In this document: positions 21,001 to 24,000 of the stretch, in pieces
Numbering within the stretch: position 1 is the first letter of the stretch
Layout of the letters: each line of letters opens with the position of its first letter
Source of the DNA: Escherichia coli
Lineage (GTDB): Bacteria > Pseudomonadota > Gammaproteobacteria > Enterobacterales > Enterobacteriaceae
Assembly (NCBI RefSeq): GCF_003334335.1
Contig: NZ_QOWQ01000007.1
Length of the DNA stretch: 64,000 nucleotides
Direction: 5' to 3' (one strand)
Position numbers: made by a program

Positions 21001-24000
21001 CTCTATTGAATACATCCTCTGCCTATTGCCAGTTTCAGTTACTTTTTTGCGAAGAAATCACGATTTGCTCATATGAGCATAAATACTGACGCCATTATGT
21101 GCTTTTTTGTGATCTGGATTTAATTTCTCAGATCTCGTTATTTATCCACAGGATCGTTGTGCTATAACTGCTCATATGAATATTGTTCAATGCTCATGTG
21201 AGCATTTTTGGGTGAGGGGGAAAGGATATGATATCGATCAGTGTTGCCGATGGTGCGGGACTGCAGAATTACGATGCCGTGCTTGAGCATATTTTTAACA
21301 CGCACCGTACAACGAATACGGTGAAAGAGAGCTGGCTCAATGCTATGCGTAAACGCGAAGCGGAATATCCGACAGGAATAGAACTGGAAGGTTATTCTAT
21401 CGCTATACCACACTGTGATAGTGAACATGCGAATCAACCTGCTATTTATATCATCCGTCTGCCAGACGCAATACCTGTGAACAGGGCTGATGAAGATGGA
21501 ATATTGTGGGTCAGACTCGTCGTTAATCTTATTGTTACGGATCCTGCTGACCAGCTTCGATTGTTAAAGTCATTATTTAACCATCTCCAAAATGAAGAAT
21601 TTTACCAAAACTTACTGACACTTCCCGTCGATGATGCAAAAGCACTTTTTGTATCCAAAATAATCCAATAGTAAAAACTGGAGTTTATTATGATTAATAT
21701 TCTTGTTGCTTGTGGTAGCGGTGTCGCTACCTCTACGCTTGCTGCTGATGAAGTGAAGTCAGTATGTGCTGAATATGGTATTACGGCATTTAAAATCAAC
21801 AAATGCAGTATGGCTGAACTTTCTTCTGAGATGGCTCATGCAGATATTGTACTCACAACTAATAACTATAAAGGTGATATTGGGAAACCACATATGAGCG
21901 TTGCAGGTTTTGTAACGGGCATTAATGAAGGAGCATTACGCAAGAAATTAGGAGAGTTATTAACTGAATTAGCAAATAGCTAAACCTGACAGGAATAATA
22001 AAAATGGAAATGTTGAAAAATTTAATGGAAACAATCACCGGAATGGGGGCAACTGCAATACTGCCGCTGGTGATATTTATTTTAGGTCTGGTGTTCAGAA
22101 TGAAACCAGGTGCCGCAATCAAGTCGGGCATCACAGTCGGTATTGGTTTTATTGGTTTAGGTCTGGTTGTTGGTTTATTAAATAGTTCATTACAGCCAGC
22201 TATTGAGTATTACTCAAAAGTAGGTAGTGGTTTTACGGTTGCAGATATTGGTTGGCCAGCAGTCGGTGCTGCTGCATGGGTGGCACCTTTTGCCGCATTA
22301 GTGATACCAGTTGGCATCGTACTTAACCTGATTCTGGTGCGTCTGAAATTAACCAAAACGTTAAATGTTGATATCTGGAACTATATGCATTTTTTAGTTC
22401 CGGGCGCTCTGGCATATTTTGTGTTCGATAGTTTTATCATCGGCTTCTCTGTCGCGGTGGCTTTGAGTATTGCGGCTCTGTTTATTGGCGATTTGATTGC
22501 TCCCAGATGGCAAAAATATTATGGACTCGAGGGAACAACCTGTACCACGATGATTCATATCGGCTGGACTCTACCGTTCGCTTGGGTAGTAAATAAAATC
22601 ATTGATTACATCCCAGGGTTAAATAAGTTAGATGTTGACTTAAACAGTGTGCAAAAACGCCTGGGTGTCTTTGGTGAACCTGCAATTATCGGTGTTATCG
22701 TTGGCGCATTACTCGGAGTTTTAACGAAACAGGCAATTACCACAATTGTTCCCATGGCGATGGGGGCTGCTGGCGTCATGGTGTTGTTACCAAAAGTTGT
22801 TGGTGTGCTGATGGAAGGTCTTAACCCAATAGGGAAAAGTGCCAAAGAAATCATGCAAAAACAGATGGGTAAAGATGCTGAATTAAACATCGGTATGGAT
22901 TGTGCTCTAGCGTTGGGGGATCCGGCGACGGTCACCGTGACAGTAATTACCATTCCTTTAACCATGCTATGTGCTCTGGTATTGCCTGATATTAAGATCT
23001 TCCCAATTGGCGTATTGATGTCAATTATTTATATGACCACCATGACCGTAATGGCGAGCAACGGTAACGTGATTCGTTCGATTATCTCGACCTTGTTATT
23101 CTGCGTTGTAGTGATGTATTTAGGCGGTTATGTCGCACCAGGGGCAACGCAATTTTTAGCTGGAGCCGGTGTAGGCTTGCAAGGACAAGGTACTGATTTT
23201 GTATTAACCGGCCCGTGGGAAATTTTAACCTATTGGTTGAGTACCGTATTACATTGATTTAATAATCTGGAGTTTTAACATGGCAAAAATATTACCTTCT
23301 ATATTTGGCGCGGATATTTTACGCCTGAAAGATGAAATTCATTTTCTGGAAGAGGAACAAACCGAAATATTGCACGTTGATTTAATGGATGGCACATACG
23401 TCAGTAATATAGCCTTTGGCCCAAATCAAATTGCAGCAATGAAAAAAGCCAGTTCGATGATCTTTGACGTGCACATGATGCTGGCAAAACCTGAGCGACA
23501 TATTGATGATGTAATCAATACCGGGGCGGAGATGATTTCTGTACATTATGAATCGACGCCACATGTACATTATATTATTCAAAAAATCAAAAAAGCGGGT
23601 CGCAAAGCAGGTGTAGTGCTTAACCCTGGGACACCTGAATCTGTCATCGAGTATTTATTAGATGATATTGATTATATATTGTTAATGACAATTAACCCCG
23701 GGCAACCAGGCCAGACATTTATTCACAAAAGTCTGGAGAAAATCCGTAATGCCAAAAAAATGATATCTGGTAGAGATATTCAAATTGAAGTGGATGGTGG
23801 CGTTAATCTTGATAATGTAAAACAAGTTAAAGAAGCAGGGGCTGACCTTATTGTTGTTGGTGGTGCCTTATTTAACAAACAGCCTCGTGAAAGTTATCAG
23901 GCATTAAAAATCGCTGTTCAGTGATCACAATCTAAAAATTTCACATCCAGTTAAGTGAGGTTTTCGATTTCATATCGGGAGGAAAACCTCAGCTAAAAAA

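What the first reader, a model, noticed from the sequence alone, without database searches (positions are those of the whole stretch)
21065..21205. Triple palindromic operator TGCTCA-N-TGAGCA upstream of the second PTS operon
A perfect 14-bp palindrome (TGCTCATATGAGCA), a second copy with a degenerate right half-site, and a third near-perfect 16-bp palindrome (ATGCTCATGTGAGCAT) sit within 170 bp of the operon start. Repeated dyads like this are typical of cooperative repressor binding, most plausibly the adjacent DeoR-family regulator. The sites could also mark the promoter of the plus-strand operon.
Basis: seen in the sequence. Interest (0 to 1): 0.55.

Follow-up and report, generated by a model that had tools for sequence, protein, structure and literature searches.

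The report
SorC-type repressor operator, PTS operon
The three palindromes are real and conserved, and are almost certainly repressor binding sites at a sugar-uptake operon's promoter, but comparative evidence assigns them to a SorC-family regulator 4 kb away rather than to the adjacent DeoR-family gene.

Summary
TGCTCATATGAGCA (21066-21079), TGCTCATATGAATA (21169-21182) and ATGCTCATGTGAGCAT (21190-21205) lie upstream of the PTS IIA gene (ATG 21228). A weaker fourth site lies at 20962-20975. The window is an E. coli accessory island found in 234 of 5426 complete genomes.

The dyads are invariant across E. coli alleles whose intergenic DNA has diverged to 86%. They recur at the same positions in six other enterobacterial genera. 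S1-to-S2 is 103 bp in six of seven genera, and S2-to-S3 is 20-23 bp.

The assignment to the adjacent DeoR-family regulator is not supported.
- Eight loci encode a homologue of the island's SorC-family regulator (16080-17057) next to Rpe/SIS catabolic genes and have no DeoR gene nearby. All carry the same dyads, and six show the same tandem pair.
- Five loci from Firmicutes, Actinobacteria and Gilliamella have DeoR orthologues but no SorC homologue. None has a dyad. Their promoters carry TTGGT repeats, which also fill E. coli 19797-20144.

S2+S3 matches the bipartite operator bound by tetrameric SorC-family repressors (PMC11229326). Binding itself is inferred, not shown. This is an ordinary kind of element in an uncharacterised regulon, of modest interest.

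The parts
21169..21182 (.). S2, the promoter-proximal half-operator TGCTCATATGAATA. The left half is intact and the right half degenerate. It starts immediately after the -10-like element.
   Evidence: The left half and the GAA are invariant in 7 E. coli alleles. The same -10 plus GCTCAYRTGAT arrangement occurs in 10 SorC-containing loci.
21190..21205 (.). S3, the strong half-operator ATGCTCATGTGAGCAT, 22 bp downstream of S2. With S2 it forms a 37-bp bipartite operator (21169-21205) lying between the -10 element and the ribosome-binding site.
   Evidence: It is conserved in the alleles. The tandem pair, spaced 20-22 bp, occurs exactly once per locus in 10 of the 13 SorC-containing sources scanned and never in SorC-negative loci. 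L032 and L033, fetched later, carry the same pair at 20 bp by my count from the sequence printed. The layout matches SorC-family bipartite operators (PMC11229326).
21066..21079 (.). S1, an upstream auxiliary dyad TGCTCATATGAGCA (perfect palindrome), 103 bp upstream of S2.
   Evidence: Only the central base varies among E. coli alleles, although the flanks diverge and a 12-bp indel lies just upstream. S1-S2 is 103 bp in E. coli, Entomohabitans, Citrobacter, Enterobacter wuhouensis, K. oxytoca and Providencia, and 100 bp in Enterobacter EA-1.
20962..20975 (.). S0, a distal weak site TTATCAAGTGAGCA with a degenerate left half in E. coli. It lies about 60 bp after the stop codon of the DeoR-family gene.
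   Evidence: 2 mismatches. The equivalent site in other genera is better, of the form GCTCATAAGAGC. Its right half is invariant in E. coli alleles.
21160..21168 (+). Probable extended -10 element TGCTATAAC of the operon-2 promoter.
   Evidence: It is conserved as TGnTATAA(C/A) in all enterobacterial orthologues. TATTAT, TATGAT or TATAAT occupies the same place in Glaesserella, Rouxiella and L031. The simple consensus scan did not call it, because there is no good -35. The transcription start site has not been determined.
21109..21124 (.). Possible CRP half-site TGTGATCTGGATTTAA, 60 bp upstream of S2.
   Evidence: TGTGATC is invariant in the alleles and genera. A TGTGA/TCACA element lies at a similar position in Rouxiella, Glaesserella and L031. 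The assignment to CRP rests on my own knowledge of the consensus and was not tested.
16080..17057 (+). Gene for the SorC-family regulator (PF04198 sugar-binding domain plus an N-terminal HTH), proposed to bind the dyads.
   Evidence: The closest solved structures are K. pneumoniae SorC 2w48, B. subtilis DeoR 8r7y and LsrR. The HTH segment SRFKVARLI is conserved in homologues down to 39% identity: S47, R48, F49, A52, R53 and I55 are invariant, with K-to-R, V-to-I and L-to-I changes at the other positions.
16004..16053 (+). Probable autoregulatory operator and promoter of the SorC-family gene. It comprises TTCTCATATGCGCA (16004-16017), ATCTCTTATGAGCA (16017-30), a TATACT -10 element (16038-43) and TACTCTTCTGAT.
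   Evidence: The block CTnATGAGCRTAAAAAnGTATACTCTTTTGA is conserved upstream of the gene in 7 genera. A similar block lies upstream of the Rouxiella homologue.
21228..25350 (+). The regulated operon: PTS IIA, IIB and IIC (Gat family), an Rpe-like 3-epimerase, an SDR dehydrogenase and an HxlB-like SIS isomerase.
   Evidence: The Rpe + SIS pair accompanies the SorC homologue in every locus examined, alongside PTS, MFS or ABC transporters.
20145..20900 (+). Adjacent DeoR/GlpR-family regulator gene. It is context only and is probably not the protein that binds the dyads.
   Evidence: Its orthologues always sit divergent from an RpiB-IIC-IIB-IIA operon and carry no dyads.

Best explanation
The dyads are the operator of the island's SorC-family repressor (gene 16080-17057), which controls the promoter of the PTS-Rpe-SDR-HxlB operon.

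S2 and S3 together form one bipartite operator of 37 bp, with half-operator centres two helical turns apart. This is the kind of operator that tetrameric (dimer-of-dimers) SorC-family repressors occupy. It begins at the last base of the -10 element and covers the transcription start and early leader, so a bound tetramer would block RNA polymerase. The perfect dyad S1 lies 103 bp (about 10 turns) upstream, and the weak S0 lies a further ~104 bp upstream. These would be auxiliary sites that raise local repressor concentration or allow a DNA loop.

By analogy with CggR, B. subtilis DeoR and LsrR, a phosphorylated pathway intermediate would bind the C-terminal sugar-phosphate domain and release the repressor. 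A dyad-like block over the regulator's own -10 element suggests autoregulation.

Shown here: the sites, their conservation, their spacing, and their co-occurrence with the regulator. Inferred: binding, tetramer stoichiometry, repression, looping, the effector and the transcription start site.
For: 1. Conservation under divergence. The dyads are invariant apart from the central spacer base (plus one C-to-T change in S3 of one allele) in E. coli alleles that are 86-95% identical over this intergenic region. They are positionally conserved in Entomohabitans, Citrobacter, Enterobacter, Klebsiella and Providencia. In those 12.7-kb loci they occur nowhere else at up to 2 mismatches.
2. Co-occurrence with the SorC homologue without a DeoR gene. 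Glaesserella L019, Rouxiella L021, L023/L024, L029, L030, L031, L032 and L033 have a SorC homologue of 39-64% identity. They have different transporters and no DeoR-family gene within 7-10 kb. All carry GCTCA-NN-TGAGC dyads in the Rpe/SIS operon promoter region.
3. Counts. SorC-positive loci (237 kb) hold 7 perfect, 14 one-mismatch and 14 two-mismatch hits. SorC-negative loci (112 kb) hold 0, 0 and 0.
4. The tandem pair. A pair spaced 20-22 bp and next to a -10-like element is found once per locus in 10 SorC-positive loci. The two 65%-GC loci also have a pair, at 20 bp by my count.
5. Recognition helix. The HTH segment SRFKVARLI is conserved across homologues down to 39% identity, with six of its nine positions invariant, which fits an unchanged DNA motif.
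6. Protein family. The protein aligns over its full length, including the DNA-binding domain, with K. pneumoniae SorC and B. subtilis DeoR.
7. Published mechanism. SorC-family repressors bind as tetramers to two half-operators totalling 39-45 bp, and one half can be degenerate (PMC11229326).
8. Own promoter. A conserved dyad-like block overlaps the -10 element of the SorC gene's own promoter in 7 genera.
Against: There is no binding, expression or transcription-start data for this locus. In every enterobacterial island the SorC and DeoR genes co-occur, so the discrimination rests on more distant loci. 'No DeoR gene' there means none within the 7-10 kb flanks that were fetched, not none in the genome. 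The S2-S3 spacing varies from 20 to 23 bp. Isolated half-operators of B. subtilis DeoR show no measurable affinity, so a role for the lone S1 and S0 sites is speculative. The consensus scan did not call the promoter. K. pneumoniae SorC is reported to act as both activator and repressor (my own knowledge), so the sign of regulation is not certain.
Confidence: 0.75

Rival explanations
1. One reading: the dyads are operators of the adjacent DeoR/GlpR-family regulator (20145-20900), which would repress the downstream PTS operon cooperatively.
For: The gene lies immediately upstream. DeoR/GlpR-family repressors such as E. coli DeoR and GlpR are known to use multiple palindromic operators and looping (my own knowledge). 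In all seven enterobacterial islands the gene and the dyads co-occur.
Against: Eight SorC-positive loci with no DeoR gene nearby keep the dyads. Five loci whose DeoR orthologue is 62-74% identical (Thermophilibacter, E. faecalis, Gilliamella, S. suis, Paenibacillus) have zero hits at up to 2 mismatches in 79 kb. This includes Gilliamella, which does have the operon-2 genes. No dyad lies upstream of the DeoR gene itself. A different motif, TTGGT-N5-TTGGT(T)GTCAAT, tracks the DeoR orthologue across three phyla.
Confidence: 0.07
2. The dyads are bound by some other transcription factor encoded elsewhere, either a global regulator or an unlinked local one, and the link to the SorC homologue is coincidental.
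For: No binding data exist. A conserved TGTGATC element nearby shows that other factors probably act at this promoter.
Against: The motif follows the SorC orthogroup from Enterobacterales to Pasteurellaceae and into 65%-GC alphaproteobacterial-type contigs, with three different transporter types. A shared trans-acting factor other than the linked regulator is therefore unlikely. The motif does not match any global-regulator consensus that I know (CRP, Cra, Mlc/NagC, Fur, LexA; my own knowledge). No paper in the library reports this sequence as an operator.
Confidence: 0.08
3. The palindromes act at the RNA level as leader hairpins or terminators, or they are REP-like repeats with no operon-specific function.
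For: S3 probably lies in the transcribed leader. S0 overlaps an imperfect hairpin after the stop codon of the DeoR-family gene (20968-20995).
Against: The half-sites are conserved as sequence, with only a 2-nt spacer, which would make a very poor hairpin loop. S2 has no pairing partner. S1 and S0 lie upstream of the putative promoter. Rfam finds nothing in 19700-21400. No terminator-like site is called there. The region occurs at one place per genome, in 234 genomes.
Confidence: 0.03

Closest known systems
B. subtilis DeoR (SorC/DeoR subfamily) and its dra-nupC-pdp operator (PMC11229326)
   Same: The regulator has a short N-terminal HTH plus a PF04198 phosphosugar-binding domain and aligns with DeoR over its full length. 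The operator has two halves about two helical turns apart, one a good palindrome and one degenerate. It overlaps the promoter, and the regulator gene lies in the same locus.
   Different: The half-site sequence differs: GCTCA-YR-TGAGC here against TTGAACA/TTCAA. The operator position differs: -10/+1 to about +30 here against -60 to -21. Two extra isolated dyads lie 103 and about 207 bp upstream. The recognition helix differs: SRFKVARLI against SRPTVSRLL. The effector is unknown.
B. subtilis CggR and its gapA operator (PMC2943609, PMC11229326)
   Same: A tetramer sits on a tandem operator of 45 bp with a 22-bp repeat, downstream of the transcription start (+32 to +77). It acts as a roadblock-type repressor and is released by a sugar phosphate.
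   Different: CggR has a winged-HTH DNA-binding domain of about 100 residues. Only the effector domain aligns with the protein here. Its repeats are direct repeats of CGGGAC...TGTC.
K. pneumoniae SorC (2w48), the L-sorbose operon regulator
   Same: It is the best-scoring solved homologue (E = 2e-22, full length) and regulates a PTS-based ketose catabolic operon.
   Different: The alignment is weak and the orthogroup is different. The target genes here are a Gat-family PTS with Rpe, SDR and HxlB, not the mannose-family sor PTS. I did not retrieve its operator for comparison.
E. coli DeoR and GlpR multi-operator looping systems (DeoR/GlpR family)
   Same: They use several palindromic operators spread over 100 bp or more, with helical phasing (my own knowledge).
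   Different: This is a different protein family from the likely binder, and the co-occurrence test for the DeoR-family gene failed here.

Membership tests
SorC-family (SorC/DeoR subfamily) repressor-operator pair | The cognate regulator has an N-terminal HTH plus a C-terminal PF04198 sugar-phosphate-binding domain. | tested here: met
   PF04198 is present in all homologues. The protein aligns over its full length with SorC 2w48 and B. subtilis DeoR 8r7y, including the DNA-binding domain.
SorC-family (SorC/DeoR subfamily) repressor-operator pair | The operator is bipartite: two dyad-like half-operators about two helical turns apart, roughly 37-45 bp overall, and one half may be degenerate. | tested here: met
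   S2+S3 spans 21169-21205 with a 22-bp offset. The same pair, at 20-22 bp, is found in 10 SorC-positive loci. L032 and L033 have a pair at 20 bp by my count. The definition comes from PMC11229326.
SorC-family (SorC/DeoR subfamily) repressor-operator pair | The motif co-occurs with the regulator across genomes, independently of other linked regulators. | tested here: met
   Hits at 0, 1 and 2 mismatches number 7, 14 and 14 in SorC-positive loci and 0, 0 and 0 in SorC-negative loci. Eight DeoR-less loci carry the motif.
SorC-family (SorC/DeoR subfamily) repressor-operator pair | The operator overlaps or directly follows the regulated promoter. | tested here: inconclusive
   A conserved TGnTATAAY element abuts S2. 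However, the consensus scan did not call a promoter there, and no transcription-start data exist.
SorC-family (SorC/DeoR subfamily) repressor-operator pair | The protein physically binds as a tetramer and is released by a phosphosugar effector. | not testable with these tools
   This needs EMSA or footprinting, mass photometry and effector titration.
DeoR/GlpR-family operator of the adjacent regulator | The motif co-occurs with orthologues of the DeoR-family regulator, including upstream of its own divergent operon. | tested here: not met
   There are zero hits in 5 orthologue loci that lack a SorC homologue. There is no dyad in 19797-20144. A different repeat is conserved there.
REP/BIME-type repeated extragenic palindromes | Many copies are dispersed around the genome. 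| tested here: not met
   The region occurs at one place per genome, in 234 genomes. There are no further perfect copies in the 64-kb window. Short copies elsewhere in the genome could not be searched exhaustively.
Structured RNA element (leader or riboswitch) or intrinsic terminator | A match to an RNA family, or a stem-loop followed by a T-run. | tested here: not met
   Rfam finds nothing at E <= 1. No terminator-like site is called in 20901-21227.

The most novel reading that the evidence does not exclude
The island may use a layered two-repressor design. A DeoR-family protein would act on TTGGT repeats at the first PTS operon, and a SorC-family tetramer on GCTCA dyads at the second. The SorC-family repressor would additionally use isolated, perfectly palindromic auxiliary sites held exactly 103 bp (ten helical turns) upstream to form a repression loop. 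That behaviour is not described for this family in the structural paper I read (PMC11229326). The pair would control an as yet unassigned Rpe/SDR/HxlB route for a hexitol- or ketose-type substrate, a route that recurs with PTS, MFS and ABC uptake systems from Enterobacterales to Alphaproteobacteria.
Probability: 0.3. Interest if true: 0.45.

Novelty: new member of a known kind. Interest (0 to 1): 0.33.

Why it matters
The work gives a concrete, testable operator motif for an uncharacterised SorC-family orthogroup: GCTCA-YR-TGAGC, used as a tandem pair 20-22 bp apart. That orthogroup accompanies an Rpe + HxlB-like catabolic module in many Proteobacteria, including an accessory island carried by about 4% of complete E. 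coli genomes (among them the Crohn's-associated strain LF82). It also corrects a natural but wrong nearest-gene assignment. Anyone annotating the regulon or planning EMSA or reporter experiments should use the SorC-family protein, not the DeoR-family one. The motif can be used to trace the regulon and to help identify the unknown substrate. The element is otherwise a standard kind of bacterial operator.

Tried and rejected
- Consensus promoter and terminator scan: it did not call the likely promoter and found no terminator in the intergenic region.
- Rfam scan of 19700-21400: nothing found.
- Literature. The string GCTCATATGAGC occurs in only one paper, which I did not open; from its title it is not about an operator. 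PMC2831201 concerns the sor operon of CFT073, not this island. Searches for vpe and for hexuloisomerase/galactitol gave no paper on this island, and none of the papers they listed was opened.
- A possible degenerate partner for S1 (CGCCATTATGTGCT, 21090-21103). It is conserved, but it is offset by 24 bp and matches only 6-8 of 12 positions, so I left it unassigned.
- A simple CCAAT/ATTGG count as a DeoR-motif statistic. It was significant in some loci but not in all. The extended block TTGGT-N5-TTGGT(T)GTCAAT was more informative.
- One homologous-protein run failed for lack of capacity and was repeated.
- I did not try to assign the operon's substrate. Pentitol or hexitol phosphate pathways were considered only from memory.
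Full report
**What is there.**
- S1, TGCTCATATGAGCA, at 21066-21079, is a perfect palindrome.
- S2, TGCTCATATGAATA, at 21169-21182, has a degenerate right half.
- S3, ATGCTCATGTGAGCAT, at 21190-21205, is palindromic except for the central TG.

All lie upstream of the ATG at 21228. A fourth, weaker site, S0 (TTATCAAGTGAGCA, 20962-20975), lies about 60 bp after the stop codon of the preceding gene. Perfect matches to TGCTCANNTGAGCA occur only at S1 and S3 in the 64-kb window. Start-to-start spacings are 103 bp and 22 bp, which is close to 10 and 2 helical turns.

**Context.** The window is E. coli chromosome. The sites sit in an accessory island of about 9.4 kb between ldtA and a tRNA-Asn/nac region. 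The island is present in 234 of 5426 complete genomes. Its genes, in order, are as follows:
- a SorC-family "sugar-binding transcriptional regulator" (16080-17057, +);
- a minus-strand operon of RpiB-like, IIC, IIB and IIA genes (19796-17109), here called operon 1;
- a DeoR/GlpR-family regulator (20145-20900, +);
- the 327-bp intergenic region holding the dyads;
- a plus-strand operon of IIA, IIB, IIC(Gat), Rpe-like, SDR and HxlB-like genes (21228-25350), here called operon 2.

**Is it functional DNA?**
- Within E. coli, this intergenic region is unusually divergent, falling to 86% identity, while the DeoR-family protein is identical in all six alleles fetched (WP_000281586.1).
- In an alignment of seven alleles, the half-sites of S1, S2 and S3 are invariant. 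The exceptions are the central spacer base and one C-to-T change in S3 of one allele. The flanks, by contrast, carry substitutions and a 12-bp indel.
- Orthologous islands occur in Entomohabitans, Citrobacter, Enterobacter wuhouensis, Klebsiella oxytoca, Providencia and Enterobacter sp. EA-1. They carry the same four sites in the same intergenic region.
- At up to 2 mismatches the pattern occurs nowhere else in those 12.7-kb loci.
- S1-to-S2 is 103 bp in six of seven genera and 100 bp in EA-1. S2-to-S3 is 20-23 bp.
- S2 always directly follows a conserved TGnTATAA(C/A) -10-like element. A conserved TGTGATC element lies 60 bp upstream of S2.
- The consensus motif is (T)GCTCA-YR-TGAGC(A).

**Which protein binds?** In Enterobacterales the two regulators always travel together, so more distant loci had to be used.

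*Homologues of the SorC-family protein.* All the loci below have no DeoR-family gene and no operon 1 within the 7-10 kb flanks that were fetched. They comprise:
- Glaesserella L019;
- Rouxiella L021;
- the metagenomic contigs L023/L024, L029 and L031;
- L030, at 45% identity;
- two 65%-GC contigs, L032 and L033, at 39-42% identity.

In all of them the regulator sits next to an Rpe + SIS(HxlB-like) module. That module is served by a PTS, MFS or ABC transporter. Every one of these loci has the dyad in the promoter region of that module. Three examples:
- Glaesserella: TATTAT-TCACTCATATGATTA-N7-ATACTCATATGAGCA, just before the ribosome-binding site.
- Rouxiella: TGCTCATGTGTTAA...TTGCTCATATGAGCAA, with a 22-bp offset.
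- L032: CGCTCAAATGAGCATATATACGCTCACTTGAC, in a 66%-GC contig.

*Orthologues of the DeoR-family protein.* These were examined in Thermophilibacter, Enterococcus faecalis, Streptococcus suis, Paenibacillus and Gilliamella. In each the gene lies divergent from an operon-1-type RpiB-IIC-IIB-IIA(-SIS) operon, and no SorC homologue is present. These five loci (79 kb) contain no hit at up to 2 mismatches. That includes Gilliamella, where operon-2 genes are fused downstream of operon 1.

*Totals.* SorC-positive sequence (237 kb) holds 7, 14 and 14 hits at 0, 1 and 2 mismatches. SorC-negative sequence (112 kb) holds 0, 0 and 0.

*The DeoR loci have their own motif.* Their divergent promoter regions share a different block with E. 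coli 19797-20144: TTGGT-N5-TTGGT(T)GTCAAT, together with the inverse AAACCAAT repeats. This is the better candidate for the DeoR-family operator.

The dyads therefore track the SorC-family regulator, not the adjacent gene.

**Fit to known mechanism.**
- The SorC-family protein aligns over its full length, including the DNA-binding domain, with K. pneumoniae SorC (2w48), B. subtilis DeoR (8r7y) and LsrR. It aligns with CggR only in the effector domain. It therefore belongs to the SorC/DeoR subfamily.
- Its HTH segment SRFKVARLI is conserved in homologues down to 39% identity: six of the nine positions are invariant and the others show only K-to-R, V-to-I or L-to-I changes. This agrees with an unchanged DNA motif.
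- The 2024 structural study of B. subtilis DeoR and CggR shows that both bind as a dimer of dimers to an operator of two half-operators totalling 39-45 bp. In DeoR one half is a good palindrome and the other is degenerate, and single halves bind poorly (PMC11229326).
- S2 (degenerate) plus S3 (strong), offset by 20-22 bp, reproduce this layout. The pair occurs once per locus in 10 SorC-positive loci.

**Proposed mechanism (inferred).** A tetramer on S2+S3 (21169-21205) covers the region from the end of the -10 element through the start site and early leader, and so blocks transcription of operon 2. S1, and perhaps S0, would act as phased auxiliary sites that aid recruitment or looping. A phosphorylated pathway intermediate would release the repressor.

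The regulator's own promoter carries a conserved dyad-like block over its TATACT -10 element (16004-16053). This suggests autoregulation. The TGTGATC element may be a CRP half-site, which rests on my own knowledge and was not tested.

**Alternatives.**
- The DeoR-family assignment fails the co-occurrence test, as shown above.
- An unlinked or global factor is unlikely, because the motif follows the linked regulator across classes of Proteobacteria and across GC contents.
- RNA-level or REP-like roles are not supported. Rfam finds nothing. No terminator is called. The region occurs once per genome. The half-sites are conserved as sequence with a 2-nt spacer, and S2 has no partner to pair with.

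**Limits.**
- Nothing here demonstrates binding, the sign of regulation, the transcription start or the effector.
- "No DeoR gene" in the distant loci refers to the flanks that were fetched, not to whole genomes.
- The role of the isolated S1 and S0 sites is speculative, given that single half-operators bind B. subtilis DeoR poorly.
- Two literature searches aimed at this island found no paper on it, and the core of the dyad occurs in only one unrelated paper. Subscription literature is not covered.

**Verdict.** This is a real, conserved operator of a familiar kind in an uncharacterised regulon. The functional class is probably right. The protein assignment is probably wrong.

Noticed in passing
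window 19797-20144 (e.g. 19839-19862 GTTGGTAAATATTGGTTGTCAAT; 19909-19925 AAAACCAATAAAAACAA): The divergent region between the RpiB-like gene and the DeoR-family gene carries TTGGT/ACCAAT repeats at roughly 10-bp spacing. The same block, TTGGT-N5-TTGGT(T)GTCAAT, lies in the equivalent region next to DeoR orthologues in Enterococcus, Paenibacillus, Gilliamella and Thermophilibacter, and in partial form in S. suis. It is a likely operator of the DeoR-family regulator, conserved across three phyla.
   Followed up: partly
window 20901-21671, compared with L002-L007: E. coli alleles of this intergenic region and of the IIA gene diverge to 86-95%, while the neighbouring DeoR-family protein is identical in all six alleles fetched. 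Across genera, IIA is only 63-66% identical while IIB and IIC are 80-93% identical in the same six genera (lower, 66%, for IIC in Enterobacter EA-1). This is a local hotspot of divergence or recombination, and it includes a 12-bp indel just upstream of S1.
   Followed up: partly
window 16004-16053: Upstream of the SorC-family gene lie a 2-mismatch dyad (TTCTCATATGCGCA), an adjacent ATCTCTTATGAGCA, and a conserved TATACT -10 element followed by CTCTTCTGAT. The block is conserved in 7 genera and suggests autoregulation.
   Followed up: partly
window 21109-21124: TGTGATCTGGATTTAA: the TGTGATC is invariant across alleles and genera and sits a fixed 60 bp upstream of S2. It is a possible CRP half-site giving catabolite control. 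It was not scored against a CRP matrix.
   Followed up: no
window ~15920-25600: The whole two-operon island sits between ldtA and a tRNA-Asn gene in the cobUST-nac region. It is present in only 234 of 5426 complete E. coli genomes, including LF82. Its substrate is unknown. The Rpe + HxlB-like SIS pair recurs with PTS, MFS + FGGY-kinase or ABC + FGGY-kinase uptake systems in other bacteria.
   Followed up: partly
L026 (Gilliamella) 1367-7712: The operon-1 and operon-2 genes are fused into one minus-strand gene string (RpiB-IIC-IIB-IIA-IIB-IIC-Rpe-SDR-SIS) under the DeoR orthologue alone, with no SorC homologue and no dyads. This suggests that the two PTS modules serve one pathway.
   Followed up: no
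L011 (Proteus vulgaris) 800-1300: An 88% identical DeoR orthologue is followed by an S0-like remnant (ATGCTCATTAGAGG). No operon-2 homologues were found downstream in this locus, so the island appears truncated or rearranged there.
   Followed up: no
L015 (Enterobacter sp. EA-1) 6805-6848: A tandem run of the heptamer CAAAACG/CAAAACA lies between the DeoR stop codon and S0. It is absent from the other genera.
   Followed up: no
window 20968-20995: An imperfect hairpin, AAGTGAGCATC-CATGGC-GATGCTTGCTT, follows the stop codon of the DeoR-family gene. It is largely conserved in E. coli alleles, with three variable positions. It overlaps the right half of S0 and has no T-run. It could be a weak terminator or simply part of the site.
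   Followed up: no
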